From: Lachnospiraceae bacterium | GTDB taxonomy: Bacteria; Bacillota; Clostridia; Lachnospirales; Lachnospiraceae | Assembly: GCA_017624115.1 (NCBI GenBank) | Contig: JAGANQ010000068.1 | Location: 20,370 to 84,369, forward strand | Direction: 5' to 3' | Length of the DNA: 64,000 nucleotides | Shown: positions 5,689 to 39,377 of the stretch, piece by piece | How positions within the stretch are numbered: the stretch's first letter is position 1 | Layout of the letters: each line of letters starts with the position of its first letter | Program-made: the position numbers and the translations under genes | Notes under the pieces: model-generated | Told to the model about the DNA's origin: nothing | The model's input: only the letters and a program-made list of their open reading frames with translations | Databases searched by the model: none

Positions 5689-5705
5689 TTTAAACCTTTC
5701 CCATT

Positions 5706-11459: not shown

Positions 11460-11462
11460 CGT

Positions 11463-12107: not shown

Positions 12108-13120
12108 TCTCCCATCCTTCTTAGCAGCTGTTCATTTTCCTCTCTGCTCTTCACCGCAATCCGGTAATACCCGTTTGAAAGCCCTCTGAAATTGCTGCAG
12201 TCTCTGATAAGAATTCGTACTTTTAACAGCTCTTCGTAAAGTGCTGTCTCCGTATACACCATGACAAAATTTGCCGAAGCCGGAAATACCGTTATTCCGT
12301 CTGCTTTCAGACTCCCCTCCAGATATTCACGCTCTCTTTTTACATACTCCCGCGTTCTCTCGATAAAAGCATGCTCTCCGGCACATGCGATACCGGAAAG
12401 CTGTGAAAATACTGAAAGATTCCACTCCGGCAGATGCTTTTGTATCTGTTTCGTCAAATCAGCGTTGCTGCTCAAAAGATACCCGAACCGTACTCCCGGT
12501 ATGGCAAAAATTTTCGTAAACGCACGGACCAGCAGCAAATTATCATATACTTCAAGCTTCGGAAGCATGGAACTGCCATGTCCGCAAAAGTCGATAAAGC
12601 ATTCATCCAGAACTACATATATCTTTTTTTCTCTGCAATGGCACAGTATTTTTTCCAACAGTCCTACAGGAATCAGATTTCCTACCGGATTGTTAGGATT
12701 GGCAAGAAACAGCAAATCCGTTTTTTCATCAAGCAGCTTAAAGATACCCTCATCCAGTGCGAAGTTATTCTCTCTTTTCATCTGATAATAGATAATTTCT
12801 CCCTTACATGCTGATGCTGCATGCTCATAGCCATAAAAAGAGGGAACCGGTATGACAATCCGCTCCGGCATCAGTGCATGAATCACTGCCATAAAAAGCT
12901 CCGATGCCCCATTGCCAAACAGCAGATACTCTTCGGGGACTGACAGCATGCGGCTCATCACTGTTCTCAGCCGTTCCATCTCCGGATCCGGGTATTTCGT
13001 ACACTCAGACACAGCAGCCAAAAGTGTGTCTTTCACATGTTCCGGTATCCCAAGCGGATTTACATTAACGGAAAAGTCGTTCTCTACTTGATTTCGGTAT
13101 ATATCTCCACCATGTATCAT
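12098..13120 (-). CDS. cobD: Threonine-phosphate decarboxylase (class I/II aminotransferase fold)
   Basis: It has MIHGGDIY at the N-terminus, LANPNNPVG, and a PLP-lysine region (AFTKIFAIPGVRFGY). It lies next to cbiB. Confidence 0.8.
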   Translation of the reverse strand: MIHGGDIYRNQVENDFSVNVNPLGIPEHVKDTLLAAVSECTKYPDPEMERLRTVMSRMLSVPEEYLLFGNGASELFMAVIHALMPERIVIPVPSFYGYEHAASACKGEIIYYQMKRENNFALDEGIFKLLDEKTDLLFLANPNNPVGNLIPVGLLEKILCHCREKKIYVVLDECFIDFCGHGSSMLPKLEVYDNLLLVRAFTKIFAIPGVRFGYLLSSNADLTKQIQKHLPEWNLSVFSQLSGIACAGEHAFIERTREYVKREREYLEGSLKADGITVFPASANFVMVYTETALYEELLKVRILIRDCSNFRGLSNGYYRIAVKSREENEQLLRRMGECL

Positions 13121-13136
13121 GCTTTTCTTCTCACTC

Positions 13137-14120
13137 CTATCTAATCAGCACTGTAACCGTCATCAGAAGCAGACATATGATTTCACAAAGCCATGCTGTA
13201 AGATACATCAGGCGGTTGGTACGCCTGATATCCTCCGGCTCTATCGGACGTAAATCATCCCCTATATACGGTTTTTTCACACACTTTCCAAAATAGCTGG
13301 CATCACCTGCCAGCCATACACCAAGTGCCCCGGCACATGCTGCTTCTGTCTGCGCTGAATTTGGGCTGGCATGCTTCCGGTTATCACGCCGGTACATTTG
13401 TAATGCCCGTCTGCCGTCAAAATCCCCGCCCGCCAGAAATGAAGCCGCAATCATCAGATACGCACTGATTCTTGAGGGAATGTAATTGACCAGATCATCC
13501 AGTCTGGCTGCTGCCCTGCCAAAATACAGATAACGCTCATTTTTATATCCCACCATGGAATCCATCGTATTGACTGCCTTATATAAAAATCCCGCCAGGG
13601 GACCACCAAGAGCCGTATATAGCATCGGAGCAATCACGCCATCGGAGGTATTTTCCGCCACCGTCTCAACGGCTGCCCGCGTAACCCCCGCCTCATCGAG
13701 ACATTGCGTGTCACGCCCCACTATCATGGATACTGCTCTTCTGGCTCCCTCCAGGTCTTTTTCCTGCAAGGCCTGGCAGACCTTCATGCTCTCCACCTTC
13801 AGACATTTTGCTGCCAGAATCTGATACGTCATTATCGTTTCCAGCAAAACCCCTGCGCAGGGGTGAAGCCAGTACGCACCTGAGAGCAATATCGCCGTAA
13901 CGGATAATACAGCAGCCAGCACCAGAAGCACCAGCAGTCCGCCCTGCCGCAGTTCTGTCTTTTCTTTGTTTCCCGCTTCTTTTTTTCCATTTCTGAGCCT
14001 TTTCTCACAAAGTGAAATCAGACCTCCTATCAGCCTGACCGGATGAGGAAGCCAATGCGGGTCACCAAGGAGCATGTCCAATATAAATCCAAGAAAAAAA
14101 GCTGTCATGTGATACTTCAT
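13137..14120 (-). CDS. cbiB: Adenosylcobinamide-phosphate synthase
   Basis: It is a membrane protein with LGDPHWLPHPVRLIG and ASPNSAQTEAA motifs typical of CbiB/CobD. Confidence 0.9.
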   Translation of the reverse strand: MKYHMTAFFLGFILDMLLGDPHWLPHPVRLIGGLISLCEKRLRNGKKEAGNKEKTELRQGGLLVLLVLAAVLSVTAILLSGAYWLHPCAGVLLETIMTYQILAAKCLKVESMKVCQALQEKDLEGARRAVSMIVGRDTQCLDEAGVTRAAVETVAENTSDGVIAPMLYTALGGPLAGFLYKAVNTMDSMVGYKNERYLYFGRAAARLDDLVNYIPSRISAYLMIAASFLAGGDFDGRRALQMYRRDNRKHASPNSAQTEAACAGALGVWLAGDASYFGKCVKKPYIGDDLRPIEPEDIRRTNRLMYLTAWLCEIICLLLMTVTVLIR

Positions 14121-14149
14121 CCTATTTCACCTCTTTGCATCATCCGTGA

Positions 14150-14773
14150 TTATAATCTTTTTACATCTGTTATCCTTACCGACTCTACGGCCTCTGTTAT
14201 TCTGCACAGATACCCCTCACCGTTTGGCACCTGATAATCAAAATATTCTCCGCCATACAATCTGGAAAGCAATGCCATAATCGTTCCGCCATGTACAAGC
14301 ATCCCGATGGTCTGGAGCTTTCGTCCCTGCTTTCTTTCCCGGTTAATCCTCTCAAGCATGTTACGAAATCCTTCTTCACAGCGCAGCATAAATTCTTCCC
14401 GGCTCTCACCCTCTGGAAATGGCAATACTCCGTCACTGTCAATCCATGCCTGATATCGTTCATCCCATTTCAGTTCCTCATAATTTTTTCCCTCAAATGC
14501 ACCAAAATCCATCTCCGCCCACTCATAAATTACAGCGGGGCACATATCAGGATACAAAATCGACGCTGTCTCAAGGCAGCGTCTCATGGGGCTGGTAAAA
14601 AGCATGTCCACCCGCGGATATTTATGAGCTGCATGGTTCTGCTCCAGTTCGCGGATGCCTTCCATGGAAAGCGCTTCATCCGTTCTGCCCAGATAACGAT
14701 GCTCCCTGTTTGATTTCGTCTCCCCGTGACGAATGAGCACCAGCGTTATTTGATTCTCTGTCCGATTCCACAT
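14150..14773 (-). CDS. cobC: Alpha-ribazole phosphatase (histidine phosphatase family)
   Basis: LVLIRHGETKSNREHRYLG contains the RHG motif, and VHGGTIMAL is also present. The gene lies inside the nucleotide-loop assembly genes. Confidence 0.75.
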   Translation of the reverse strand: MWNRTENQITLVLIRHGETKSNREHRYLGRTDEALSMEGIRELEQNHAAHKYPRVDMLFTSPMRRCLETASILYPDMCPAVIYEWAEMDFGAFEGKNYEELKWDERYQAWIDSDGVLPFPEGESREEFMLRCEEGFRNMLERINRERKQGRKLQTIGMLVHGGTIMALLSRLYGGEYFDYQVPNGEGYLCRITEAVESVRITDVKRL

Positions 14774-15123
14774 ATTACCCTTACCACTTCCTCAGATTGT
14801 CCGGCTATCTCTGTCAAAAGCCTGCCAAGCCTTTCCCTGTATTCCCGTTCGAAGCTTTCAAGAGGCACAATTCCGTTTCCGACCTCATCACTGATAATGA
14901 TGCAGTCCGGATTTCGTGACAGATAGTCTCTGATAAGCTCCTCCGGCTGTTTTCCCTGCTCTATGCACGCTCTTACCCATCGGTGAAAATGATAGATAAT
15001 AACCGTCTGTCCATTATTCTCTTCCGGCAGCGCCGCGTCTGTCACAGCCCCCTCTGTCAGATGATAGTTCTGCAATGCGTAATTAAGCTTGCCCTGTGCA
15101 TATCCTCCTATAATCAGCTTCAT
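14746..15123 (-). CDS. Short, degenerate CobU-like protein (no intact P-loop or guanylyl-His region)
   Basis: The C-terminal half, IIISDEVGNGIVP...RLGRLLTEIAGQSEEVVRVICGIGQRIK, parallels the C-terminus of the full CobU at 15898-16443. The N-terminus reads IIGGYAQGKL instead of GGSGSGKS. Confidence 0.6.
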   Translation of the reverse strand: MKLIIGGYAQGKLNYALQNYHLTEGAVTDAALPEENNGQTVIIYHFHRWVRACIEQGKQPEELIRDYLSRNPDCIIISDEVGNGIVPLESFEREYRERLGRLLTEIAGQSEEVVRVICGIGQRIK

Positions 15124-15127
15124 TTTT

Positions 15128-15901
15128 TCACCCCTGTATCCATAGTGTATTTATAATAGCTGATGCTATCATAACTGCCCCCTCACAGATTACAATAAAA
15201 TACCCTGTCGTATCACCTGTGATTCCACCCAGTTCCTTTTTGCTTTTCCAATAATAATATCCAAAAACCAGCATTGCTGCCAGAAAAATCACAATTCCGG
15301 CAAACAGGTCTGTCCACAGTATAAAAAATATACAGACCATTCCCTGCAAAGCAAGTGTTCCCGTGACGATTTTCTTCTGTGCACTTCCCGCAAATAAATA
15401 TGCCAGCCCGTCCTTCTTCGCCTTCGGGAAAAGCACAAGGCTGATTCCGCCAAGTACACGTGACAAAAAAAAGCCTGCCGCTGCTATCCGAAGCAGCCGC
15501 TCATCTGAAATCTGTGAAAAGGAAGCCAGATAAAGAAGTCCATATGATACAAGCATAATCACAGAAAATGCTCCGATATGAGAATCCTTCAGTATTTCCA
15601 GCTTTCTTTCACGCGGCTGATAGGAATGGAACGCATCCATCGTATCCATAAAACCATCCATATGAAAGCCGCCTGTAACAAGCAGAGGAATCGCCGCTCC
15701 CACCAGTATATAACAGAACTCTCCTGTCTGATAAGCCTTACAGAGCATTCCCCAGCCATAAACCAGTATACCTGTCACGATTCCCACCCATGGGAAAAAG
15801 CAGAGCATATATTTCATATCCCCTTCTCTCCACTCAAACTGTGGAACCGGGATTTTAGAATATATGGAAAAAGCAATAAAAAAAGCTTTAAGCACGCTCA
15901 T
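15128..15901 (-). CDS. cobS: Adenosylcobinamide-GDP ribazoletransferase (cobalamin synthase)
   Basis: It is a polytopic membrane protein with FHMDGFMDTMDA and GITGDT motifs. It shares an ATGA overlap with cobU. Confidence 0.85.
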   Translation of the reverse strand: MSVLKAFFIAFSIYSKIPVPQFEWREGDMKYMLCFFPWVGIVTGILVYGWGMLCKAYQTGEFCYILVGAAIPLLVTGGFHMDGFMDTMDAFHSYQPRERKLEILKDSHIGAFSVIMLVSYGLLYLASFSQISDERLLRIAAAGFFLSRVLGGISLVLFPKAKKDGLAYLFAGSAQKKIVTGTLALQGMVCIFFILWTDLFAGIVIFLAAMLVFGYYYWKSKKELGGITGDTTGYFIVICEGAVMIASAIINTLWIQG

Positions 15902-16443
15902 CTGACTCCTCCTGACTTAATTGTCAGCGGAATTCCTGCCACCACCTCTGTCACCTCATCTGCCATATCGGCAAGTCTGCGGTTGACAGCTCCCAGAACC
16001 CGCATATATTCCATCGTTGTCTCATCATAGGTAATACCATCCTCGAAAACATTGTTCGTAACGATTACAAGACAGGTAAGCTCCTGCTGCAGCTTCTCAA
16101 TTCCGTTTATTATTTTCTGGAATACCTCTTTCCCCGGCTTTATACAGTCACCGCCAAACATTTCATTTGCAGCCAGATTAGACATACACTCCAGCAATGC
16201 AAAAGCCTTCCCTGTTTTCATTTTCTGTAAAGCTATTTCTACAGAAACAGGCTGCTCAATCGTCAGAAATCCTCTGTCTGCCCGCATTCTCTGATGGCGC
16301 TCCACTTTTCTTCTTCCCTCTTCACCGGACACCTGCATTGTGGCAATATAATATTTCTGCACATTTCCCGCAGCCATATCGATGTAATTCTCTGCATAGG
16401 CAGACTTACCGCTTCCGCTGCCTCCTGTCACTACTACCAGCAT
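15898..16443 (-). CDS. cobU: Adenosylcobinamide kinase / adenosylcobinamide-phosphate guanylyltransferase
   Basis: MLVVVTGGSGSGKSAYAE is a Walker A motif. VERHQRMR and VTNNVFEDGI...AGIPLTIK are also present. The ATG at 16443 directly follows the cobT stop; the ORF track extends to 16524. Confidence 0.85.
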   Translation of the reverse strand: MLVVVTGGSGSGKSAYAENYIDMAAGNVQKYYIATMQVSGEEGRRKVERHQRMRADRGFLTIEQPVSVEIALQKMKTGKAFALLECMSNLAANEMFGGDCIKPGKEVFQKIINGIEKLQQELTCLVIVTNNVFEDGITYDETTMEYMRVLGAVNRRLADMADEVTEVVAGIPLTIKSGGVR

Positions 16444-16444
16444 T

Positions 16445-17554
16445 TTACATAAACCTCTTATAGCTTTCCATCTGCACATCCTCAAAGGTGGTTCTGTTAT
16501 GATAGACAGAGACTGCCATGTCAAGCAGTGACATCATCATAACTGCTCCTGTTCCTTCACCCAGCGCAAGATTAGCGTCAATCACCGGAGATAACCCCAG
16601 CTTTTCTGTCAGCATTTTGACTGCAGGCTCTTTTCCCTTGTGAGAAGCAATCAAATATGCTTTACTTCCCGGAAGCAGCTCTTCTGCCAGAAGTGCTGAC
16701 ACCAGACTGATAACACCATCCAGCACAATAGGAATATGATAAAGCGCTCCACCCATGCACACTCCGGCAAGTCCCGCAATATCGAGACCGCCGACTGCTG
16801 CGAGCACCTGCAGGGCATCCGCCTTGCAGAGCTGATAGTTTTCAACCGCTTCCCTGACTACCTGCTGTTTTTTCTCAAGCCCTTCATCACTTAAGCCAGC
16901 CCCTCTGCCTGTCACCTCCGCCGCCGGACAATGAAGAAGTGCTGCTGCTACCGCACTGCTCGTTGTAGTATTGCCAATTCCCATCTCCCCGGTTGCTATC
17001 AGCCTGTAGCCCTTTCTTTTACACTCTGATACTATCTCTATCCCCGTAAACACAGCACGGATGGCTTCCTGCTCTGTCATTGCCGGAGTTTTATAAAAGT
17101 TCTCTGTCCCGCATTTTACTTTTCGCTGTACCAGTCCGTCAATCGGTTCCCTGCGGTTGATACCGATATCTACCGGTATTGTATCAGCACCAATAACCTC
17201 CGCCATTTTTCCCACGGAGGTCGCCTTTCTGGTCATCCGTTCGGCAACGATTGCCGTAACCTCCTGTCCTGACTGGCTTACGCCTTCCTCTACAATGCCA
17301 TTATCTGCACACATGATGACGACTACTTTTCGTGAAATATTCACCTGCTCCTCACCTGAAATGGCACCAATCTGTGCAATCAGAGGTTCAAAGGCTCCCA
17401 GTCCGTCCAATGGCTTCAGCACCATATCCCAGTTCTTCTGTATCTGCCTTCGGATAGTTTCATCTGGTGCATCAATATGAAGCGAACGCAGGGCTTCTCT
17501 CGTATACTTTTGTATACTATACTCATTCCAGCTTTGCTTCCCTAAGGATTCCAT
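16445..17554 (-). CDS. cobT: Nicotinate-nucleotide--dimethylbenzimidazole phosphoribosyltransferase
   Basis: [27 protein letters not shown] and ALGEGTGA are CobT motifs. Confidence 0.9.
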
Positions 17555-19010
17555 AAATTTCCTCCATATTCAGATATTGTCTCAGCGTATCTGCCAGTAT
17601 GTCATACTGCGTCTCTTTAAAAGCCTGATAATCCATAATCGTTCCATTTTCCAGAGTAATCCCCTTTTTCTCTGCGAGTGCTTTTATGACAGCAGCGGCA
17701 ATTTCGCCCCGGTCAAACAATCCATGTACATAGGAGCCATATACATTTCCCTTACCGCCAAGCACCACAGGTAATTCCTCATGGTTTCCGTTGTATGCTT
17801 CTGCATATTCTGTCGTTCCCATATGTATCTCATAGCCTTCATATTCCATGCCGTTAAGGCATGCAAAAACTCCCGGCAGACTTTCCAACGCACCCGTTAC
17901 CTGGCAGCGCCTTTTTTCTTTTTTTAAGGCTGTGACAACAGGCAAAAGCTCCATTCCGCGAATCGTTCCGCCTTCCTCGACACAGTCATTATCCGAAATT
18001 TCATATCCTAACATCTGGTAACCTCCGCAAATGCCAAATACCGGGATTTCCTCAGACAGCTTTTTTACAGCGGCCTCCAGACCATTCTGGCGCATCCATT
18101 TCAGGTCACTCATGGTATTTTTGCTTCCCGGCAGAAAAAGGATGTCCGGAGATTTTAGTTCGCTGACCGATGTGACATAGCGTACACTCACATCCGGCTG
18201 CTGCTCAAACACGTTGAAATCCGTAAAATTCGATATTCTCGGATAACGTATCACTGCAATATCAATACATCCGGCTTTTTTTTCCGAAAACCGCTCCGAA
18301 AGACTGTCCTCATCATCCAGAGACAGGTTCATATAGGGAATCACTCCCAGCACAGGAATTCCTCCACGCTCCTCAAGCATCTCTATTCCCGGGTCGAGAA
18401 TCGTTTTATCTCCCCTGAATTTATTGATAAACAGCCCCTTTACTCTGCTTTTCTCTTCCTCCGTAAGCAGCATCAGCGTTCCCAAAAGCTGCGCAAACAC
18501 ACCGCCCCGGTCAATATCTCCTACCAGCAGTACTGGTGCATCTACCATCTGTGCCATGCCCATGTTTACAATGTCATTTTCCTTCAGATTAATCTCCGCC
18601 GGACTTCCTGCACCTTCTATAACAATGATATCTGCCAGCTCCTCCAGCTTTAAGAACGCTTTTTTTATGTCAGGTATCAGCTTCCTCTTACAGGCAAAAT
18701 ACTCCCTAGCACTCATATTGCCAAGTACCTCACCGTTTACAATAACCTGGGAGCCTGTCTGGTTGGTCGGCTTCAGTAATATGGGATTCATGCAGACAAG
18801 CGGTTTCATCCCGGCGGCCTCCGCCTGCATGACCTGTGCACGCCCCATCTCAAGTCCTTCCTCCGTGATATAGGAATTGAGCGCCATATTCTGAGATTTG
18901 AAAGGAGCCACGCGGTATCCGTCCTGTCTGAAAATCCTGCAAAGTCCTGCCACCAGAAGACTCTTACCCGCATTAGACATGGTACCCTGTATCATAATTA
19001 CCTTCGACAT
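17523..19010 (-). CDS. cobQ: Cobyric acid synthase
   Basis: It has [30 protein letters not shown], and a C-terminal GATase domain ([11 protein letters not shown]). Confidence 0.9.
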
Positions 19011-19025
19011 ATATTATCCGCCCTT

Positions 19026-20132
19026 CTATGCTTCTGTTTCAATGATTTTTCCCCTTTGACGGGCAAATGCAAGCAGCTCCTGATTAGCAGCCTCAAAGCT
19101 TCCAAATGTCTTCCTGCAGCAGATTACCCTCTCACAGGAATCCATCCTTTGTTTTGCTTTTTTAAACACCATATCTGTAATGGGTTCAAATGCTTCTGCC
19201 GTTATCACCTCTGCTGCCAGAGCTTTTGCGACAGGATAATCCAGATCATTTTCAAACAATATTCCCGTTATAAATGAGATTCCTTCTCTCTGCAGCCGCC
19301 GGTATGTAGTTTTACCCCTGCCGCCACCTGCTATTACAAATACCGCTGCAGGTCCGTCAGCTGCAGAAAGCTCCATACTGCCATTTTCCTCGTCAAAGCT
19401 TCCCGATGTAATCGAAAACAGCTTCGCGATATAGCCCGGCACAAAGATTTCCTCCGGTTTCCCAAACCGTTCGGCATACTCTCCGTTAATGCAAAGTATT
19501 TTATCCGAAACCCTTGCTGCCAGTTCCAGCTCATGGAGTGACATAATAACTGTTAAATGTTTTTTTCTTCGCATTTCCTGTAAAACAGATAAAAATTCTA
19601 ATTTATATTTTACATCCAAATAGGAGGTTGGCTCATCCAGAATAATTATCTCCGGTTCCTGGCAGATTGCTCTCGCAAGCATAACACGCTGTCTCTGTCC
19701 ATCACTTATCCGTGTGAAATCCTCATTCTTTATCTCTGCTACATGCACCAGCTCCATGGCTTCCTCAACCACCTTATAATCTGCTTTCGATAAGATGCCA
19801 AAGCGGCCGGTATACGGATATCGTCCGGTAGCAACCACATCCTCGCAGGTCATCATTTCCGTCCGAAGCTTATCCGTTAATACTACTGCCATTTTCTGTG
19901 ACAATTCTGCACCGGACATTTGTACCATGTCCTGATTATTCAGATACATGACTCCATCAATCAGCTTAAGCTGTCTTGCAATGCTTTTTAAAACGGTAGA
20001 CTTTCCGGCGCCGTTAGGACCAATCAGTGTGAGAATTTCGCCTTTTTTGACGCTGATATCCATATTTTGAATAAGGGGACGCTTATGATAACCCACACTC
20101 ATCTTTTTTGTTGAAAAATAATATTCCATCAC
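19026..20132 (-). CDS. ABC transporter ATP-binding protein (FepC/BtuD-type) with a C-terminal extension of about 115 aa
   Basis: It carries Walker A (GPNGAGKST), the signature-like ISDGQRQRV and Walker B (IIILDEPTS). An extra domain follows, from about aa 250 (VFVIAGGGRGKTTYRRLQ...). Confidence 0.85.
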   Translation of the reverse strand: MMEYYFSTKKMSVGYHKRPLIQNMDISVKKGEILTLIGPNGAGKSTVLKSIARQLKLIDGVMYLNNQDMVQMSGAELSQKMAVVLTDKLRTEMMTCEDVVATGRYPYTGRFGILSKADYKVVEEAMELVHVAEIKNEDFTRISDGQRQRVMLARAICQEPEIIILDEPTSYLDVKYKLEFLSVLQEMRRKKHLTVIMSLHELELAARVSDKILCINGEYAERFGKPEEIFVPGYIAKLFSITSGSFDEENGSMELSAADGPAAVFVIAGGGRGKTTYRRLQREGISFITGILFENDLDYPVAKALAAEVITAEAFEPITDMVFKKAKQRMDSCERVICCRKTFGSFEAANQELLAFARQRGKIIETEA

Positions 20133-21151
20133 ATCTGTTTCTCCTTATTGCGCCTTATCATAACCCACAGCACTACCGGAGCGCCAAAGACTGCTGTCAC
20201 AGTGCTGATGCTGAGCTCCGTCGGGGCAAGCATCGTTCTTGCCAGCAAATCACAGAACAGGCAGAAGACGCTGCCGCCTAAAAAGCATGCCGGTATCATA
20301 AGAATCGGTTTTGCTGTCCCCAAAAGGCTCTTTACCAGATGCGGTGCTGCGATTCCTACAAAGGAAATCGGCCCTGCATACGCCACAATGCAGGCAGACA
20401 AAATGCTGGACAAAATAACTAAAAGAGCACGAAGCAGCCGGATATCCACCCCCATATTCCGCGCATAGGCTTCACCTGACTGGTACGCACTTAATGGCTT
20501 GGACAGCAAAAATACTGCACCGAAGGTCACTGCTATTATGACTGCCATGACGGAGACATTATCCCACGACATACCGGAGAAGCTTCCTCTTGACCAGTTA
20601 TGCAGGTTCACGATATCGGCATCACTGGCAAAGGTGATAACAAGCTCTGTAACTGCCGAGCAGATATATCCAATCATAACCCCGCTGACAACCAGCATGG
20701 ACATGTTACTTACCTTACGGGACATCAGCAGAACAAACCCCATCGATATCATTGCTCCAAAAAATGCTGCAAGGATAAGTGCTGCAGAGCTGACCTTTAT
20801 CGCCCTTCCAAGCAGAAACACCATAACCAGAGACACAATCATCTTTGCTCCCGAAGAAATGCCCAGAACAAACGGTCCCGCAATCGGATTATGAAAAAAT
20901 TCCTGCAGAAGGTAGCCGGAAAGCGCCAGCGCACCACCCAGTATCATCGCCGCCAATGACCTGGGAAGGCGGATATCCCATAGAATTCTTGCTGTTGTTT
21001 TATCGATTTCCTTCCCTGTAACCGCTTTTGCAATATCGGGCAGGGAAATCTCCACACTCCCGATGCGGACATTCAGAATCAAAAGCATTGCTGCCCCTGC
21101 TGCAAGCAGAACAAAAACTGTACTGTACCTGATAGTTCTATTCAACCGCAT
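20129..21151 (-). CDS. FecCD/BtuC-family ABC transporter permease
   Basis: It is a hydrophobic protein of about 10 TM segments with the LPRSLAAMILGGALALSG and NPIAGPFVLGISSGA motifs of the iron-siderophore/B12 permease family. Confidence 0.85.
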   Translation of the reverse strand: MRLNRTIRYSTVFVLLAAGAAMLLILNVRIGSVEISLPDIAKAVTGKEIDKTTARILWDIRLPRSLAAMILGGALALSGYLLQEFFHNPIAGPFVLGISSGAKMIVSLVMVFLLGRAIKVSSAALILAAFFGAMISMGFVLLMSRKVSNMSMLVVSGVMIGYICSAVTELVITFASDADIVNLHNWSRGSFSGMSWDNVSVMAVIIAVTFGAVFLLSKPLSAYQSGEAYARNMGVDIRLLRALLVILSSILSACIVAYAGPISFVGIAAPHLVKSLLGTAKPILMIPACFLGGSVFCLFCDLLARTMLAPTELSISTVTAVFGAPVVLWVMIRRNKEKQM

Positions 21152-22376
21152 CCTGCCCCTCCTGCTCTAACCGGAAAAGATACCTCATATTCTCTTCTCC
21201 TTTTCCATGAAGCATAGTATAGATATCTTCCACCAGATACCCAATTGACATTGACTGCTGGTACATATCATTGGTTGTACAAAAGACATTGCCGTCCTGC
21301 ACTGCATTGAAATCCTCTAAAAGCTCACATTTATCAAGAAGCTGTTCTATGGATGCAACACCACCGTCTATCGAGCTGTTATAAATGATAAAATCTGCAT
21401 CCTTAGCACCCTTATAAAACTCTTCTACCTGCATATTCATAGTGGAACGGTTGGACTGCGGATCACCTAAATGATCAAATATATATCTGCCGCCTGCCAG
21501 TGCGATCATCTTCGGCACATAATCAGAGCTTTGCCGCACCTGTACCAGTCCGTTAGAGGTAATGAAGAAGAATGCGACCGTTTTGTCTGTTTTTTCATCC
21601 GATGTCACCTGCTCCAAAATAGCTGTCTGTTTGTTAAACGCTTCTTCTGCCTTCTCTTCTTTTCCTACTAATGCACCGAAAAATTTAATCCATTCTACCC
21701 TGCCAAGAGGATGGGACTCATAGCTGGAATACTCAATCATAACCGGAACGCCAAAATCCTCAAGCTTCTCTATCACCTCCGGTGAATGAGAAATCATCAT
21801 ATTTTCAATGGCAAGAGAACAATTCTGCGACACAATCAGCTCATAGTCCGGTTTATTATATTTTCCGGCATATAGCATACTGCCGTCAGCCATAGCTTTC
21901 TTTGCTGCATCAATATACCAGCCATCCTCCTTCTGTCCCGAGAGCGCAATCGCATCCAGTGCATCCAGCTCACAAAACATATCCATGACTGCTGATGCCA
22001 CCAGATATAGATTTTCTATCGGACGCTTTAAAACAATAATGTCATCCTCCAGATTTTCAGGAATCCTCTCTTTCTCCGGTACCACCAGGATTTTTGTACC
22101 ATCCTTTATGGTCAGCAGAGTATATCCGCCCTCATAATAATCCACCGAAAAATTCTGTGCATACTGAAGCTCCATGCTGCTCTCATATACCAGACCCGTG
22201 CTGTCCCGGTCCACAATTATCTCATCCGCTGTCGTACTCTCTGTTATCTCTATACTTGCTGTCTCTATCGCCGCCTCTGTATTGGATATGGAGCCGGAAC
22301 TGCCGCAGCTATACAGTCCCGGCAGCCCCAGGAAAAATAAGCAGCATAATATTACTATGTTTTTTCTTCCTGCCAT
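21138..22376 (-). CDS. Substrate-binding lipoprotein of the siderophore/haem/B12 (BtuF-like) ABC class
   Basis: A signal peptide ends in the lipobox LYSC. The protein is of the class III periplasmic-binding type by size and lies upstream of the FecCD permease. Confidence 0.7.
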   Translation of the reverse strand: MAGRKNIVILCCLFFLGLPGLYSCGSSGSISNTEAAIETASIEITESTTADEIIVDRDSTGLVYESSMELQYAQNFSVDYYEGGYTLLTIKDGTKILVVPEKERIPENLEDDIIVLKRPIENLYLVASAVMDMFCELDALDAIALSGQKEDGWYIDAAKKAMADGSMLYAGKYNKPDYELIVSQNCSLAIENMMISHSPEVIEKLEDFGVPVMIEYSSYESHPLGRVEWIKFFGALVGKEEKAEEAFNKQTAILEQVTSDEKTDKTVAFFFITSNGLVQVRQSSDYVPKMIALAGGRYIFDHLGDPQSNRSTMNMQVEEFYKGAKDADFIIYNSSIDGGVASIEQLLDKCELLEDFNAVQDGNVFCTTNDMYQQSMSIGYLVEDIYTMLHGKGEENMRYLFRLEQEGQDAVE

Positions 22377-22387
22377 TTTAGTTCCTC

Positions 22388-24049
22388 TTATTTCACTGCT
22401 TTCATAGTGTCAGAATGAAAGGTAAGTGTATATTCTACTTCATGCGGCTTACTCATTGCTACCGTGTCACCGATTACTGCTATTTCCGTATCAAATGCCG
22501 AAACAGGAATCTCAAACACAGAATTTCCTTCTGTATTAACCGGCAGATATTTTACGCCATCCACAAGCATATAGTCATAATTAGGGCTGCTCCACTCAAT
22601 TGTGGCAATAACCGTATCTCCAGTCACAGTAATGGCTGCAGGTGATATAACCGTAGTTTTTCCGCTTCCTCCGCCAAGCGTTACCTCGATTGTATAAGTA
22701 CCATCCTCCGCTTTCACTTCTGTGGAAACAGATTCTTCTTCCGTATCTGTTTTTCCCTCATCAGCAGCCGCTGAAAGAGTCGATGACAGGAAGGTAAGCT
22801 GGCGCTCATACCATTCTCCCTTCTTCTTACTGAAAGCTGCACAGTCAATCGGCTGATCCAATGCTTCTACCGGAATTGTATAGGTATAAGCTCCCTCTGC
22901 ATTCTCTGCAAACGGAATACAGTCCGCCTCATCTGCTGATGCTGCCTGCTCACCGGTACCCATGTAAAGCTTGCTGTAGCCTGTACCGCTAAGCGTAATA
23001 ACCGCTGTCATCTTTCCGTCCGCTATAGTCAGTTCTGCACTTTCCACCTTAAACATCGAAGAACTCGACTCCACTTCTATGCTGTAGATTCCATCTGTAA
23101 GCTCTGTTACTGTAGTCTCTGCTTCAGTTTCTTCTATCCCTTCAAAGCTTATTCCCTCTGCAATAGCAGTTCCGATATGCGCTACATAGATATCCTGAAT
23201 CGCAGGAATCTGTCCCAATCCCTCCAGAACACACTCCACCTCGTAGCCTTCCTTTTTAAGAATCGTCTTCCATGAATCCTCTTCCTCTCCTGCCATATCA
23301 TTGTTGGCATGATCTCCGGCTACTACCATTAAAGGTTCCAGAACAACCTTCTTATAGGTTCCCTTCGTTTTCAAAGCTGCTGTCACATCCTCCAGCGTTG
23401 GTTCGGCCTCTACTGTTCCAATGTAATAATTGTCATAGCCACCCTGCGCCAGCTTCTCCTGAAGCTTTGCATAGACTCCGTTAGAAGCCGCCTCTGTCCC
23501 ATGTCCCATAAAGCAGACAGCGGTTTCTCCGTCATCATACGCCACAGTCTTCTCTGTGATTGCTTTAATCACTGCATCAAAATCGGCATCGCTTGTCAAT
23601 AATGGCTCTCCCAGTATAATCTTATCAAACTTGTCCATATAGTCTGTCAATGCTTTTGCAAGGTCGGTATATTCATAGCCGTTCATCAGATGTGTAGGCT
23701 GTACTGCCAGTTCCCTCACGCCATCGGCTACGGCTCTGTCCAATGCCTCTTCTACATTATCAATCTCCAGTCCGTCGCGTTCCTTCAGGATATCAATAAT
23801 AATCTGACTGGTAAATGCCCTGCGCACCTCATATTCCGGGTATGAATCTGCAATCGCATGTTCAATGGCGCCAATCGTAATGTCACGGCTATCATTGTAG
23901 CTGGTGCCAAAGCTTACTACCAGAATCGCCTTATTGCTGTTTATCTGCTCCGGCTCTGTGGTCTGGCTCTGTGCCGCTTCCTTTGCGCAGCCGCCAAAAC
24001 AGCATACGCTTAACATTACTGCCAACATCGTTACGAATCGTTTTTTCAT
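22388..24049 (-). CDS. Secreted lipoprotein: sirohydrochlorin cobaltochelatase (CbiK) fold plus two C-terminal beta-rich repeats
   Basis: The start MKKRFVTMLAVMLSVCCFGGC (ATG 24049, AAGAGGA RBS) gives a signal peptide and lipobox. The CbiK-like core has ILVVSFGTSY, QPTHLMNG and FMGHGT. An internal duplication follows (DGIYSIEV... and DGTYTIEV...). The ORF track extends to 24172 across the terminator. Confidence 0.75.
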   Translation of the reverse strand: MKKRFVTMLAVMLSVCCFGGCAKEAAQSQTTEPEQINSNKAILVVSFGTSYNDSRDITIGAIEHAIADSYPEYEVRRAFTSQIIIDILKERDGLEIDNVEEALDRAVADGVRELAVQPTHLMNGYEYTDLAKALTDYMDKFDKIILGEPLLTSDADFDAVIKAITEKTVAYDDGETAVCFMGHGTEAASNGVYAKLQEKLAQGGYDNYYIGTVEAEPTLEDVTAALKTKGTYKKVVLEPLMVVAGDHANNDMAGEEEDSWKTILKKEGYEVECVLEGLGQIPAIQDIYVAHIGTAIAEGISFEGIEETEAETTVTELTDGIYSIEVESSSSMFKVESAELTIADGKMTAVITLSGTGYSKLYMGTGEQAASADEADCIPFAENAEGAYTYTIPVEALDQPIDCAAFSKKKGEWYERQLTFLSSTLSAAADEGKTDTEEESVSTEVKAEDGTYTIEVTLGGGSGKTTVISPAAITVTGDTVIATIEWSSPNYDYMLVDGVKYLPVNTEGNSVFEIPVSAFDTEIAVIGDTVAMSKPHEVEYTLTFHSDTMKAVK

Positions 24050-24126
24050 ATTGTCCTCTTTTCTGCAGTGTTCCTGCCATTTGTATTTTTTTCCTACAGA
24101 AACGATTCCAATACCCGTAAAAACGC

Positions 24127-24169
24127 AGCAAAAAGAAAAACCCTTTCCTATACAGGTAAAGGGTTTGTA
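24127..24169 (-). terminator. Intrinsic terminator acting as the riboswitch expression platform
   Basis: The minus strand reads ACAAACCCTTTACCTGTATAGGAAAGGGTTTTTCTTTTTGC, a 9-12 bp stem plus a U-run. It lies between the aptamer and the first start codon. Confidence 0.75.
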
Positions 24170-24259
24170 CACAAAATAAATCTGCTGAAAGCATAGCTAT
24201 GCTTCGCAAACTATCACGTACAACCAGTTACTCGTGGTCTGAAACAAACGTTTCTGTAC

Positions 24260-24435
24260 AACAGTCAGGCAGGTCTCCCGGCTTAAAGATCATCGCATCC
24301 GCCATCTTCCCAGTTTCCCAGTGATATATCGGCCTCAGCTCCCTAATTACGGTGACGAGTTCGTACAGGATTTGCACCTGTTTCCCTTTTCACCGGAACC
24401 AATCACATTCGTGATTGTTCCGACACCTGACTGTT
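24260..24435 (-). promoter_or_regulatory. Cobalamin (B12) riboswitch aptamer
   Basis: The minus strand has P1 AACAGTCAGG...CCTGACTGTT. The conserved core GGTGAAAAGGGAAACAGGTGCAAATCC is present, with CACTGGGAAACTGGGAAG. The B12 box AAGCCGGGAGACCTGCC is also present. Confidence 0.9.
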
Positions 24436-24464
24436 ACATATTCAATTTGTACAAGTATACTATT

Positions 24465-39346: not shown

Positions 39347-39377
39347 TCCATTTCCTCCTTCCGGCAAAGTTTTTCAG

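What the first reader, a model, noticed from the sequence alone, without database searches (positions are those of the whole stretch)
22388..24435. B12-riboswitch-controlled surface lipoprotein with a CbiK chelatase fold and two NEAT-like repeats, heading a BtuFCD-type importer
**Seen in the sequence**
- The first gene behind the cobalamin riboswitch encodes a protein with a signal peptide and lipobox (MKKRFVTMLAVMLSVCCFGGC).
- A CbiK-type class II chelatase core follows. It keeps the motifs ILVVSFGTSY, QPTHLMNG and FMGHGT, which contain the usual catalytic histidines.
- About 235 extra C-terminal residues form an obvious internal duplication. The two copies read DGIYSIEVESSSS..AELTIADGKMTAVITLSG..YTYTIPVEALD..LTF and DGTYTIEVTLGGG..AAITVTGDTVIATIEWSS..SVFEIPVSAFD..LTF.
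- The pattern DGxYxI.., a beta-rich stretch, then GK..v.l resembles NEAT-type haem-binding domains.
- The next three genes are a BtuF-like binding lipoprotein, a FecCD permease and an ATPase.

**Inference**
- A lipoprotein outside the membrane cannot perform the cytoplasmic cobalt insertion step, so this is not the pathway chelatase.
- Background as I recall it: a periplasmic CbiK paralogue in Desulfovibrio binds haem, and Bacteroides uses surface proteins (BtuG/BtuH) to capture corrinoids. I know of no described Firmicutes counterpart.
- I suggest a surface tetrapyrrole (corrinoid or haem) or cobalt capture device that feeds the ABC importer and is switched off by B12.
Basis: partly seen in the sequence, partly recalled or inferred. 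Interest (0 to 1): 0.72.

Follow-up and report, generated by a model that had tools for sequence, protein, structure and literature searches.

The report
B12-switched surface chelatase–NEAT uptake cassette
A gut or rumen Lachnospiraceae bacterium displays on its surface a cobalt-chelatase-like domain fused to two haem-receptor-like (NEAT) domains, placed with an ABC importer behind a vitamin B12 riboswitch; this widespread, apparently unstudied cassette probably captures a B12-related tetrapyrrole and may explain how many gut bacteria feed an incomplete B12 pathway.

Summary
On the minus strand a cobalamin riboswitch (24251-24445, 106.9 bits) and an intrinsic terminator precede a 553-aa lipoprotein (22388-24049). 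That protein has a CbiK class II chelatase domain with the His/Glu/His site intact, then two divergent NEAT-fold domains (AlphaFold pLDDT 88.8; every strong Foldseek hit is a NEAT domain). A binding lipoprotein, a FecCD permease, an ATPase and a 14-gene anaerobic cobalamin operon follow.

The order CbiK, NEATx2, binding protein, permease, ATPase recurs in 160 further loci (genome and metagenome scans plus three look-ups), fused or split. About 95% of loci with upstream sequence carry the riboswitch, and the proteins are nearly always exported.

The closest characterised relatives are P. gingivalis FetB/IhtB and Desulfovibrio CbiK(P), and the Isd/Hbp NEAT relays. I found no paper describing this cassette.

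The cargo is unresolved. I rank a chelatase-level tetrapyrrole (sirohydrochlorin class, cobalt possibly inserted outside the cell) slightly above finished corrinoids. Free cobalt and haem come after that.

Verdict: a new variant of known kinds, of high interest, needing whole-genome and biochemical tests.

The parts
24251..24445 (-). Cobalamin riboswitch aptamer (RF00174)
   Evidence: Rfam cmscan gives 106.9 bits against a gathering score of 31.5, E 8.5e-26, with the full model 1-189 matched.
24130..24166 (-). Intrinsic terminator hairpin plus U-run; the riboswitch expression platform
   Evidence: The sequence was read. The hairpin AAACCCUUUACC/GGAAAGGGUU followed by UUUUUCUUUUU is in the MFE fold, and the region has z = -3.3. 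The simple consensus scan missed it.
22388..24049 (-). Gene for the 553-aa lipoprotein: signal peptide and lipobox, CbiK domain, NEAT-like repeats 1 and 2
   Evidence: It is an exact match to P0001, named 'MAG Lachnospiraceae bacterium sirohydrochlorin cobaltochelatase'.
23987..24049 (-). Signal peptide and lipobox (residues 1-21, MKKRFVTMLAVMLSVCCFGG|C)
   Evidence: It has an n-region KKR, a hydrophobic core and a Cys at position 21. Orthologues carry LGGC/LAGC/LAAC at the same place. Of 72 CbiK N-termini, 60 have a lipobox and 11 another signal peptide.
23162..23932 (-). Class II chelatase (CbiK) domain, residues 40-296, with the His/Glu/His metal site intact
   Evidence: Pfam PF06180 gives 279 bits. 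The alignment to S. enterica CbiK 1qgo shows equivalents of H145, E175 and H207 in FMGHG, TVEAE and AGDHA. The site is kept in 83, 80 and 84 of 86 extended homologues.
22769..23092 (-). NEAT-like repeat 1 (residues 320-427); motifs SSSSMF (lip) and C..FSK.K..WY (beta7-beta8)
   Evidence: The AlphaFold2 model has pLDDT 88.8. Foldseek matches IsdX1, Hbp2, IsdC and IsdH/IsdB NEAT domains with TM 0.57-0.73. Pfam NEAT scores 24 bits, below the cut-off of 32.8. Invariant residues come from alignment A1.
22397..22702 (-). NEAT-like repeat 2 (residues 450-551); motifs GGSGK (lip), NYDYM, EGNS.FEIP, DT.AMS.PHE.EY
   Evidence: Searches support the fold and the motifs. It is homologous to repeat 1 (hhalign 97.3%), with H229..Y233 aligned to K103..Y107.
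21138..22376 (-). Class III substrate-binding lipoprotein (Peripla_BP_2) with a disordered tether of about 60 aa
   Evidence: Pfam gives E 1e-24. The best solved relative by profile is Listeria Lmo2184, E 2e-7. The AlphaFold2 and Foldseek top matches are siderophore and haem binding proteins, with no BtuF.
20129..21151 (-). FecCD/BtuC-type permease
   Evidence: Pfam FecCD gives E 4e-80. The best NCBIfam hit is BtuC at 214 bits, below the cut-off of 334.
19026..20132 (-). ABC ATPase with an extra C-terminal domain of about 120 aa
   Evidence: Pfam ABC_tran matches. The best NCBIfam hit is the archaeal corrinoid ABC ATPase at 204 bits, below the cut-off of 537, covering residues 8-345. The L001 orthologue carries Pfam MJ0874 at its C-terminus.
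4282..19010 (-). Co-directional cobalamin operon: CbiP, CobT, CobU, CobS, CobC, CbiB, CobD, CbiC, CbiD, CbiF, CbiG, CbiH, CbiJ-E-T, CbiA. It has no CbiL, no second chelatase, no CbiMNQO and no hem/cobA genes.
   Evidence: Pfam and NCBIfam scans. The rest of the window has none of the missing genes.

Best explanation
**What it is.** A B12-repressed, cell-surface tetrapyrrole-handling relay that loads a type II ABC importer to supply the cobamide pathway.

**Shown in silico**
- When cobamide is plentiful, the riboswitch should terminate transcription at the hairpin upstream of the gene.
- When cobamide is scarce, the cell makes a lipid-anchored protein. Its first module is a class II chelatase with all metal-site residues. 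Its next two modules have the NEAT fold, with conserved residues at the lip and the beta7-beta8 hairpin, which I read as the canonical NEAT ligand pocket.
- A tethered binding lipoprotein, a permease and an ATPase are made with it.

**Inferred: the cargo and the steps**
- The chelatase module captures its native type of substrate from the environment. This would be a sirohydrochlorin- or precorrin-2-level tetrapyrrole released by neighbouring cells.
- It inserts Co2+ into that tetrapyrrole at the cell surface.
- The NEAT modules take the cobalt tetrapyrrole through an axial Tyr or His ligand (K103..Y107 in repeat 1, H229..Y233 in repeat 2) and pass it to the binding protein.
- The importer delivers it to the cytoplasmic CbiL-to-CbiA enzymes.
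- One cassette would then supply both the ring and the cobalt. That would explain why the operon has no hem/cobA genes, no cytoplasmic chelatase and no cobalt transporter.
For: **Anatomy**
- Riboswitch and terminator.
- CbiK domain with the equivalents of H145, E175 and H207.
- NEAT fold.
- Conserved residues at the lip and the beta7-beta8 hairpin.

**Conservation**
- The same five-part cassette occurs in L001-L163, 17 fused and 61 split in the first set.
- A riboswitch is present in 67/71 and 56/59 loci with upstream sequence.
- No other gene family recurs around the cassette.

**Chelatase chemistry retained**
- The metal site is kept in 80-84 of 86 extended homologues, at least as well as in 47 short cytoplasmic CbiKs.
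- The Arg of RAFTS is kept as in sirohydrochlorin-specific S. enterica CbiK. The porphyrin-associated FetB and CbiK(P) have Trp there.
- The surface homologue FetB inserts Co and Mn into a porphyrin and is needed for extracellular Mn-PPIX (PMC13065792).

**Context**
- In 44 of the first 82 loci the cassette abuts cob genes. In about 11 of these it is followed directly by ring genes CbiC/D-F-G-H-J.
- The window operon lacks CbiK(cytoplasmic), CbiMNQO and hem/cobA.
- No locus has a second CbiK except L083.

**Unmet need**
- Shelton et al. list many gut and rumen Clostridia as 'precorrin-2' or 'UroIII' salvagers with an intact corrin pathway. These include at least 11 rumen Lachnospiraceae, Coprococcus comes, Dorea longicatena, F. 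prausnitzii, Collinsella and Roseburia intestinalis (PMC6461909). They name no route by which the precursor would be taken up.
- That paper also notes that P. gingivalis lacks precorrin-2 synthesis; FetB/IhtB is its surface CbiK.

**Gene fusions**
- One cassette (L083) has its ATPase fused to a cytoplasmic CbiK.
- CbiK is also found fused to CbiO, a CobW-like GTPase, HemC and SirC, which supply the chelatase's substrates.

**Binding protein**
- It resembles haem and siderophore binders rather than BtuF.
Against: - There is no direct evidence that sirohydrochlorin-class molecules are available in gut or rumen. Import of such a molecule has no precedent that I know of.
- I could not check whether this genome, or any cassette-bearing genome, lacks hem/cobA, cytoplasmic cbiK/cbiX or cbiMNQO.
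- CbiL is also missing from the operon, so some pathway genes lie elsewhere, and a cytoplasmic chelatase may lie with them.
- The permease and ATPase score best against B12/corrinoid transporter models, although below their cut-offs.
- R. hominis and C. asparagiforme, species whose genomes or MAGs carry the cassette, were predicted B12 prototrophs. By Shelton's account, earlier genomic studies of that kind did not score the hem genes.
- The ATPase::CbiK fusion is a single contig seen in two samples and did not recur among the 80 metagenome loci kept.
- Several conserved residues in repeat 2 are acidic, which fits an octa-carboxylate ligand poorly.
Confidence: 0.38

Rival explanations
1. Corrinoid capture relay. 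The chelatase-fold and NEAT-fold modules are passive high-affinity binders of ready-made corrinoids (cobamides, cobinamide, cobyric acid). His or Tyr would ligate the cobalt. The modules hand the corrinoid to a BtuFCD-like importer. This would be the Gram-positive counterpart of Bacteroides BtuG/BtuH/BtuJ.
For: - By established comparative genomics, riboswitch-controlled type II importers are usually corrinoid transporters.
- The best NCBIfam hits are BtuC (214 bits) and the archaeal corrinoid ABC ATPase (204 bits, including the extra C-terminal domain).
- In about 28 of the first 82 loci the cassette is followed by CbiP-CobT-CobU-CobS, the salvage and late steps.
- Tandem 2-3x CbiK and multi-NEAT variants look like avidity receptors.
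- The H229..Y233 motif in repeat 2 could give His-on cobalt ligation.
- Conserved acidic residues suit neutral or cationic corrinoids.
- Surface corrinoid binders give a fitness gain in gut Bacteroides (PMC6143338, PMC13616437).
Against: - A pure binder need not keep the full His/Glu/His site in 80-84 of 86 homologues.
- The binding protein shows no detectable relation to BtuF.
- No NEAT or CbiK protein is known to bind a corrinoid; I found no such paper.
- The two named host species were predicted producers, not auxotrophs.
- This reading leaves the 'precorrin-2 salvager' problem unsolved.
Confidence: 0.33
2. Cobalt-ion scavenging. The exported chelatase domain uses its His/Glu/His site to capture Co2+ and passes it, free or loosely chelated, to the ABC importer. 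The cassette would stand in for CbiMNQO in the cob operon.
For: - Cob operons normally carry a cobalt importer, and none is present in this one.
- The metal site is strictly conserved.
- As I recall it, S. meliloti CbtJKL is a riboswitch-controlled cobalt importer of the same ABC family. The review PMC7689651 lists CbtJKL as an ABC-type cobalt uptake system.
- CbiO::CbiK and CobW-like::CbiK fusions show that CbiK is coupled to cobalt supply.
Against: - Two conserved NEAT-fold domains have no role in binding a bare ion.
- Class III binding proteins and type II importers normally carry chelates.
- NEAT-CbiK co-occurrence in at least 40 of 150 diverse representatives points to a tetrapyrrole.
Confidence: 0.1
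3. Haem or porphyrin acquisition of the Isd/Iht type. The NEAT modules and a FetB-like chelatase take haem or protoporphyrin to an IsdE-like binding protein. Riboswitch control would be incidental or reflect cross-talk.
For: - All structural neighbours of the repeats are haem-binding NEAT domains.
- The best solved sequence relative of the binding protein is Listeria Lmo2184. From my own knowledge, this lies in the srtB/Hbp NEAT locus. E 2e-7.
- The best TM-scores are to the haem binders ShuT and HutB.
- FetB/IhtB and CbiK(P) bind haem.
Against: - 123 of 130 loci carry a cobalamin riboswitch, and 44 of the first 82 loci abut cob genes. Haem cannot enter the corrin pathway.
- The canonical YxxxY haem motif is absent.
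- RAFTS keeps the Arg of the sirohydrochlorin enzymes, not the Trp of FetB and CbiK(P).
Confidence: 0.06
4. It is simply the cytoplasmic pathway enzyme, sirohydrochlorin cobaltochelatase, as the database annotation says. The N-terminal hydrophobic stretch would not function as a signal.
For: - The database name is 'sirohydrochlorin cobaltochelatase'.
- There is a strong CbiK domain with an intact site.
- It sits in a cob operon that has no other chelatase.
Against: - The lipobox or signal peptide is conserved in 71 of 72 orthologues. The partner NEAT proteins are lipoproteins or carry a signal peptide plus a C-terminal membrane anchor.
- It is fused to domains of a surface-receptor fold.
- It scores 237.7 bits against the NCBIfam equivalog, below the cut-off of 400.
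Confidence: 0.02

Closest known systems
Porphyromonas gingivalis FetB/IhtB (PDB 9B86) in the ihtABCDE locus
   Same: - It is an exported lipoprotein with the CbiK fold and the His/Glu/His site. The phmmer E-value to the window domain is 2e-43.
- It is encoded with a binding protein, a FecCD-type permease and an ATPase.
- It has in vitro Co and Mn chelatase activity and acts at the cell surface.
- Shelton et al. note that the host lacks precorrin-2 synthesis.
   Different: - It is Gram-negative, works with a TonB-dependent receptor and has no NEAT domains.
- It is studied as a haem and iron system, and no riboswitch has been reported for it.
- It has Trp instead of Arg in the RAFTS motif.
- It is not specially related to the window domain in a crude NJ tree.
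Desulfovibrio vulgaris periplasmic CbiK(P) (PDB 2XVX)
   Same: - It is an exported CbiK, with phmmer E 1.8e-35 to the window domain.
- In Desulfovibrio a B12 element controls cbiK-cbiL together with btuCDF (PMC545781).
   Different: - It is periplasmic and soluble and has no NEAT domains.
- From my own knowledge, it binds haem b between subunits.
- The organism also has a cytoplasmic CbiK. Its physiological role is still unknown.
Isd/Hbp/IsdX NEAT haem relays of Bacillota (IsdH, IsdB, IsdC, IsdX1, Hbp2 with IsdE/IsdF)
   Same: - They have the same beta-sandwich fold (TM 0.57-0.73, Foldseek probability 1.0).
- The domains occur in tandem on surface proteins next to a class III binding lipoprotein and a FecCD permease.
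- The binding protein's best solved sequence relative is Lmo2184, which I recall as part of the Listeria Hbp locus.
   Different: - The sequence is very divergent. Pfam NEAT is below its cut-off for this protein, HMMER finds no solved NEAT, and hhalign to IsdA gives under 1%.
- There is no YxxxY motif.
- Anchoring is by lipid or membrane helix, not by sortase.
- Control is by a B12 riboswitch, not by iron.
- The domains are coupled to a chelatase.
Bacteroides surface corrinoid binders BtuG, BtuH and BtuJ
   Same: - They are riboswitch-controlled surface lipoproteins that sit in front of a B12 transporter.
- They follow the same ecological logic of competitive capture.
   Different: - Pfam gave only CbiK and NEAT matches, with no sign of homology to these binders.
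- They work with the outer-membrane transporter BtuB.
- Their corrinoid binding is proven, whereas here the ligand is unknown.
Sinorhizobium meliloti CbtJKL cobalt importer
   Same: As I recall it, this is a riboswitch-controlled ABC importer of the FecCD/Peripla_BP_2 family dedicated to supplying the B12 pathway. The review PMC7689651 lists it as an ABC-type cobalt uptake system.
   Different: - It has no chelatase or NEAT accessory proteins.
- Its cargo is taken to be cobalt, free or chelated.

Membership tests
CbiK class II cobaltochelatase (Pfam PF06180) | Domain match above the curated cut-off | tested here: met
   279.4 bits against 26.2, residues 40-296 matching profile positions 1-261 of 262.
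CbiK class II cobaltochelatase (Pfam PF06180) | Metal-site residues His145, Glu175 and His207 (S. enterica numbering) | tested here: met
   The alignment to 1qgo places them in FMGHG, TVEAE and AGDHA. They are kept in 83, 80 and 84 of 86 extended homologues.
Pathway enzyme sirohydrochlorin cobaltochelatase (NCBIfam NF047852 equivalog) | Score above the equivalog cut-off | tested here: not met
   The protein scores 237.7 bits against a cut-off of 400.
Pathway enzyme sirohydrochlorin cobaltochelatase (NCBIfam NF047852 equivalog) | Cytoplasmic location | tested here: not met
   A signal peptide and lipobox are conserved across orthologues.
Pathway enzyme sirohydrochlorin cobaltochelatase (NCBIfam NF047852 equivalog) | Cobalt insertion into sirohydrochlorin | not testable with these tools
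   This needs an anaerobic enzyme assay.
NEAT domain (Pfam PF05031) | Sequence match above the gathering score | tested here: inconclusive
   The window protein scores 20-24 bits against 32.8. Of 53 standalone homologues, 40 match at E<=0.01, the best at 2.7e-10. HMMER profiles find no solved NEAT domain.
NEAT domain (Pfam PF05031) | Eight-stranded beta-sandwich fold | tested here: met
   The model has pLDDT 88.8. All 16 PDB matches with E<=0.001 are NEAT domains, with TM 0.66-0.73 to the single-domain entries.
NEAT domain (Pfam PF05031) | YxxxY haem-ligating motif on beta8 | tested here: not met
   There is one invariant Tyr per repeat. The motifs are K103..Y107 in repeat 1 and H229..Y233 in repeat 2.
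NEAT domain (Pfam PF05031) | Conserved Ser/Met lip after beta1 | tested here: inconclusive
   Repeat 1 has an invariant SSSSMF at that position and repeat 2 has GGSGK. The resemblance to the S-x-M-D-x-Y/F lip is from memory, not from an alignment.
NEAT domain (Pfam PF05031) | Haem binding | not testable with these tools
   This needs spectroscopy on purified domains.
Exported CbiK paralogues (CbiK(P), FetB/IhtB) | Signal peptide, CbiK fold and linkage to a FecCD-type ABC importer | tested here: met
   Literature.
Exported CbiK paralogues (CbiK(P), FetB/IhtB) | Specific common descent with FetB and CbiK(P) | tested here: inconclusive
   In a crude NJ tree the two pair with each other in another subclade. 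phmmer bits are 164 for the cytoplasmic S. enterica CbiK, 152 for FetB and 126 for CbiK(P).
BtuFCD corrinoid importer | Peripla_BP_2 binding protein, FecCD permease and ABC ATPase under a cobalamin riboswitch | tested here: met
BtuFCD corrinoid importer | Equivalog-level match to BtuC or BtuD | tested here: not met
   BtuC scores 214 bits against a cut-off of 334, and the corrinoid ATPase 204 against 537.
BtuFCD corrinoid importer | Similarity of the binding protein to BtuF | tested here: not met
   No BtuF appears by phmmer, by profile or in the Foldseek top 50.
BtuFCD corrinoid importer | Corrinoid transport | not testable with these tools
   This needs uptake assays.
Isd-type NEAT relay | Sortase anchoring | tested here: not met
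   Anchors are a lipobox or a C-terminal membrane helix with a KKRK tail. No LPXTG motif is visible in the sequences shown.
Isd-type NEAT relay | Iron-responsive control | tested here: not met
   Control is by a cobalamin riboswitch.
Bacteroides BtuG/BtuH/BtuJ | Homologous domains (propeller, DUF4465 and others) | tested here: not met
   Pfam scans list only CbiK, CbiX and weak NEAT matches.

The most novel reading that the evidence does not exclude
The cassette is the missing uptake route of the 'tetrapyrrole precursor salvagers'. Many gut and rumen Clostridia keep the corrin pathway but cannot make precorrin-2. They would harvest sirohydrochlorin-class tetrapyrroles from neighbouring cells with a surface-displayed copy of the pathway chelatase. 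Cobalt would be inserted outside the cell, the product passed along NEAT domains and then imported. One committed step of vitamin B12 biosynthesis would therefore be extracellular, and NEAT domains would have a natural ligand other than haem.
Probability: 0.3. Interest if true: 0.9.

Novelty: new variant of a known kind. Interest (0 to 1): 0.7.

Why it matters
- Lachnospiraceae and their relatives are among the main Gram-positive bacteria of the gut and rumen and include many predicted B12 producers. How they acquire B12-related molecules at the cell surface is essentially unknown. The known surface systems (BtuG, BtuH, BtuJ) are from Bacteroidota.
- This cassette is present in at least 250 species-level genomes. 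It is tightly riboswitch-controlled and is annotated only as 'sirohydrochlorin cobaltochelatase', 'hypothetical protein' and 'ABC transporter substrate-binding protein'.
- Counting its chelatase as the cytoplasmic pathway enzyme could distort genome-based predictions of who makes B12.
- If the cargo is a corrinoid, this is the first Gram-positive surface capture system, and the first NEAT or chelatase fold that binds a corrinoid.
- If the cargo is a chelatase-level precursor, the cassette answers the open question raised by Shelton et al. of how 'precorrin-2 salvagers' feed their pathway. It would also place a biosynthetic metal-insertion step outside the cell.
- Either answer can be tested directly with a soluble recombinant protein.

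Tried and rejected
- **Sequence link of the repeats to solved NEAT domains.** HMMER profiles of repeat 1 and repeat 2 found none. The NEAT assignment therefore rests on the fold and on weak Pfam hits.
- **Binding-protein specificity.** phmmer against the PDB found nothing. The profile gave only Lmo2184 at 2e-7. The AlphaFold2 model was of moderate quality (pLDDT 69.8), and Foldseek returned generic class III binders. None of this decides the ligand.
- **Phylogeny of exported against cytoplasmic CbiK.** An NJ tree on 137 domains did not separate the two classes cleanly. I make no claim about one or several origins of export.
- **ATPase::CbiK fusion as a Rosetta stone.** I first weighted it heavily, then downgraded it. 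A metagenome scan with its junction returned 80 loci that matched only the CbiK half.
- **Other conserved neighbours (CbiMNQO, CbiZ, CobW and so on).** Clustering 381 other ORFs in the 82 loci gave no family present in more than 6 loci.
- **Whether the host genome has a second chelatase, cbiL, hem/cobA or cbiMNQO.** These genes are not in the 64-kb window.
- **Matching cassette-bearing species to published phenotype tables.** Only genus-level overlap could be found.
- **Literature.** Ten searches found no paper that describes CbiK-NEAT proteins or this cassette. The library lacks most subscription-journal papers, notably Rodionov et al. 2003, Lobo et al. 2008 and Romao et al. 2011, so an earlier mention cannot be excluded.
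- **Simple promoter and terminator scan.** It missed the terminator and found no minus-strand promoter.

Full report
**1. What is in the window**

All relevant features are on the minus strand. Rfam finds one family in the 64 kb: a complete cobalamin riboswitch aptamer at 24251-24445 (106.9 bits, E 8.5e-26). It begins about 19 nt after the stop codon of the pnp gene (24465-26582).

Between the aptamer and the next gene lies the hairpin AAACCCUUUACC-UGUAUA-GGAAAGGGUU followed by UUUUUCUUUUU, at 24166-24130. It appears in the minimum-free-energy fold of the leader (z = -3.3). This is a typical transcription-terminating expression platform.

The gene starts at the ATG at 24049, behind AGAGGA, and ends at 22388. 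It encodes 553 residues.

Four tightly packed or overlapping genes make up the head of the operon: this lipoprotein, a Peripla_BP_2 lipoprotein (21138-22376), a FecCD permease (20129-21151), and an ABC ATPase with an extra C-terminal domain (19026-20132).

After a 15-nt gap come CbiP, CobT, CobU, CobS, CobC, CbiB, CobD, CbiC, CbiD, CbiF, CbiG, CbiH, a CbiJ-CbiE-CbiT fusion and CbiA, down to 4282.

The operon, and the rest of the window, contain no CbiL, no second chelatase, no CbiMNQO and no hem/cobA genes.

**2. The protein**

- Residues 1-21 form a lipoprotein signal (KKR, hydrophobic core, FGG|C).
- Residues 40-296 are a full CbiK domain (Pfam 279 bits).
- Aligned to S. enterica CbiK (1qgo, E 4e-47), the three metal-site residues are present: His145 in FMGHG, Glu175 in TVEAE and His207 in AGDHA.
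- The score against NCBI's equivalog model for the pathway enzyme is 237.7 bits, below the cut-off of 400.
- Residues about 308-553 are two homologous repeats: BLASTP E 3e-7 and hhalign 97.3%, E 1.8e-11.
- An AlphaFold2 model built on 53 sequences has mean pLDDT 88.8. It shows two beta-sandwiches joined by a disordered linker.
- In a Foldseek search of the PDB, all 16 matches with E <= 0.001 are NEAT domains: IsdH, IsdB, IsdX1, Hbp2 and IsdX2. IsdC and Shp follow just below that threshold. TM-scores to the single-domain entries reach 0.73.
- At sequence level the relation is faint. Pfam NEAT gives 20-24 bits against a cut-off of 32.8 for this protein, but matches 40 of 53 standalone homologues, the best at E 2.7e-10. 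HMMER and hhalign against solved NEATs find nothing.
- The invariant residues cluster in two places that I read as the NEAT ligand pocket. One is the lip after beta1 (SSSSMF in repeat 1, GGSGK in repeat 2). The other is the beta7-beta8 hairpin (C96, S100, K103, W106, Y107 in repeat 1; T222, A224, M225, P228, H229, E230, Y233 in repeat 2).
- The canonical YxxxY motif is replaced by KxxxY and HxxxY.

**3. How general it is**

The protein is identical to a MAG Lachnospiraceae protein named 'sirohydrochlorin cobaltochelatase'. Hundreds of 546-590-aa orthologues exist. The repeat pair also exists as a separate 290-380-aa protein. That protein is anchored either by a lipobox or by a signal peptide plus a C-terminal membrane helix.

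Genome scan:
- A scan of one genome per species found relatives in 253 stretches. The best 80 loci were kept.
- They are mostly Lachnospiraceae: Roseburia hominis, Blautia, Fusicatenibacter, Marvinbryantia, Acetatifactor, Moryella, Parablautia, Agathobacter and Acetivibrio ethanolgignens. Some are Oscillospiraceae and Coriobacteriia.
- In essentially all of them the order is CbiK, NEATx2, binding protein, permease, ATPase. Seventeen are fused and 61 split.

Metagenome scan:
- A second, independent scan gave 80 more loci.
- Nearly every contig that extends downstream shows the same order.

Regulation and export:
- A cobalamin riboswitch lies just upstream in 67 of 71 and 56 of 59 loci that have upstream sequence (nhmmer). 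Rfam confirmed all six tested positives at 96-110 bits, and confirmed that four loci lack one.
- Of 72 CbiK N-termini, 60 have a lipobox and 11 another signal peptide.
- No other gene family recurs next to the cassette.

Link to cob genes:
- Forty-four of the first 82 loci abut cob genes.
- About 28 continue into CbiP-CobT-CobU-CobS. About 11 continue directly into ring genes CbiC/D-F-G-H-J.
- The Enterocloster asparagiformis cassette stands alone.

Diversity of the chelatase domain:
- An exhaustive HMMER search with the chelatase domain found 3672 representative proteins.
- Of the best 150, about a third are ordinary short cytoplasmic CbiKs, all at 61% identity or less.
- The rest carry N-terminal extensions or fused domains, mostly with signal peptides. 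At least 40 have NEAT-like domains on either side of the chelatase, and some have two or three tandem chelatase domains. The longest is 1623 aa.
- Among 86 such extended domains, the equivalents of His145, Glu175 and His207 are kept in 83, 80 and 84. That is at least as well as in the cytoplasmic enzymes.

**4. What is known**

P. gingivalis IhtB/FetB:
- It is a surface lipoprotein homologous to CbiK, encoded with a TonB receptor and an ABC importer (PMC12094164).
- Its structure (9B86) is solved.
- It inserts Co and Mn, but not Fe or Ni, into a porphyrin analogue. It is required for extracellular Mn-protoporphyrin (PMC13065792).

Other precedents:
- In Desulfovibrio a B12 element controls cbiK-cbiL together with btuCDF (PMC545781). 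The periplasmic CbiK(P) structure is 2XVX.
- Bacteroides use the unrelated surface lipoproteins BtuG, BtuH and BtuJ. A 2026 review states that Gram-positive counterparts are 'entirely uncharacterized' (PMC13616437).
- I found no paper on CbiK-NEAT proteins. Several key subscription-journal papers are not in the library.

**5. Mechanism**

The following rests on sequence, predicted structure and comparative evidence:
- B12-repressible expression.
- Export and surface tethering.
- A chelatase module with a complete active site.
- Two modules of a fold known only as a tetrapyrrole receptor and relay.
- Obligatory genetic coupling to a type II ABC importer.
- Frequent physical linkage to the cobamide pathway.

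The cargo is inferred. I considered four candidates.

*(a) A chelatase-level tetrapyrrole.*
- It accounts for the strictly conserved metal site and for the retained Arg in RAFTS. That Arg is present in the sirohydrochlorin enzyme but is Trp in FetB and CbiK(P).
- It accounts for a binding protein that looks like haem and siderophore binders rather than BtuF.
- It accounts for the absence of hem/cobA, a cytoplasmic chelatase and a cobalt importer from the operon.
- It meets a documented unmet need. Shelton et al. classify 180 species, mostly host-associated Firmicutes, as tetrapyrrole-precursor salvagers. Many rumen Lachnospiraceae, Coprococcus comes, Dorea longicatena, F. prausnitzii and Collinsella lack every step up to precorrin-2, and the paper names no uptake route (PMC6461909).
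- One cassette (L083) even fuses its ATPase to a cytoplasmic CbiK. This fusion did not recur among the 80 metagenome loci kept, so I give it little weight.

*(b) Finished corrinoids.*
- This is the conventional expectation for a riboswitch-controlled BtuCD-like importer.
- It fits the best, though sub-threshold, NCBIfam hits, the multi-domain receptor look, and the HxxxY motif.
- It does not explain why the catalytic site is kept.

*(c) Bare cobalt.* This leaves the NEAT domains without a role.

*(d) Haem.* This contradicts the regulation and the gene context.

I estimate (a) 0.38, (b) 0.33, (c) 0.10, (d) 0.06 and the annotated cytoplasmic role 0.02. About 0.1 remains for something else.

**6. 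Novelty and verdict**

The parts are known kinds: exported CbiK paralogues, NEAT relays and riboswitch-controlled type II importers. Their combination into one conserved, very widespread Gram-positive cassette appears undescribed. Databases label the chelatase component as the pathway enzyme.

I rate it a new variant of a known kind, with interest 0.70.

The decisive tests are:
- a whole-genome phyletic comparison against hem/cobA, cytoplasmic chelatase and cobalt-importer genes;
- ligand-binding and chelatase assays on the soluble protein.

Noticed in passing
window 24446-24465 and the 3' end of pnp (24465-26582, -): The riboswitch aptamer starts only about 19 nt after the pnp stop codon. The consensus scan found no minus-strand sigma-70-like promoter in 23900-24700. 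The cob operon promoter must therefore lie inside the end of pnp, be non-canonical, or the leader is made by read-through from pnp.
   Followed up: partly
window 19026-20132 (-), C-terminal ~120 residues; L001 11512-12624: The transporter ATPase has an extra C-terminal domain (VFVIAGGGRGKTTYRRLQREGISF...). This domain is shared with the archaeal corrinoid ABC ATPase model, and the Enterocloster orthologue is tagged Pfam MJ0874. Its role is unknown.
   Followed up: partly
L083 4809-6755 (protein P0378): This cassette has the ABC ATPase, 49% identical to the window's, fused to a signal-less CbiK domain. A chelatase domain therefore sits on both sides of the membrane. It is seen on one contig in two samples, and no other example turned up in the loci examined.
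   Followed up: yes
proteins P0499, P0422, P0395, P0456: Cytoplasmic CbiK occurs fused to CbiO (the cobalt ECF ATPase), to a CobW-like GTPase, to HemC and to a SirC/CysG N-terminal domain. These partners supply either its metal or its tetrapyrrole substrate.
   Followed up: partly
proteins P0003, P0004, P0021, P0040, P0361-P0367: Some surface proteins have two or three tandem complete CbiK domains, with or without NEAT repeats. Others, up to 1623 aa, have NEAT-like domains N-terminal to the chelatase.
   Followed up: partly
L005 7790-8793: A fused CbiK-NEAT gene is followed by only the first ~112 residues of the binding protein and then CbiB. The permease and ATPase are missing from this MAG, through either a deletion or an assembly artefact.
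   Followed up: no
L024 464-643, 6094-6264, 8042-8197: There are three cobalamin-riboswitch-like elements within 9.7 kb. The second precedes a Cys-rich 242-aa protein. The third precedes a 294-aa protein that looks like a xylose-isomerase/AP-endonuclease-2 TIM barrel, possibly a CbiR-type cobamide remodelling enzyme. I did not check this with Pfam.
   Followed up: no
L014, L023, L046, L054, L107, L135, L144: These cassettes have no detectable cobalamin riboswitch despite kilobases of upstream sequence. L046 sits downstream of cob genes and may be read through from them. How the others are regulated is unknown.
   Followed up: partly
window 2439-3935 (-): Just downstream of the cob operon (beyond cbiA) lies a 498-aa protein with an N-terminal zinc ribbon, a TPR and two chitobiase/hexosaminidase C-terminal (Fn3-associated) domains. 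The combination is odd and its function unknown.
   Followed up: no
window 36998-39367 (-): This 789-aa protein combines TPR, DUF4037 and DUF4125 domains and has no assigned function.
   Followed up: no
L015 11184-13505 and two other loci: A His-rich heavy-metal P-type ATPase (N-terminus HEHHHHEHDHCC repeats) lies just downstream of the cassette in three loci. It may be a Co/Zn/Cd exporter placed next to the importer.
   Followed up: no
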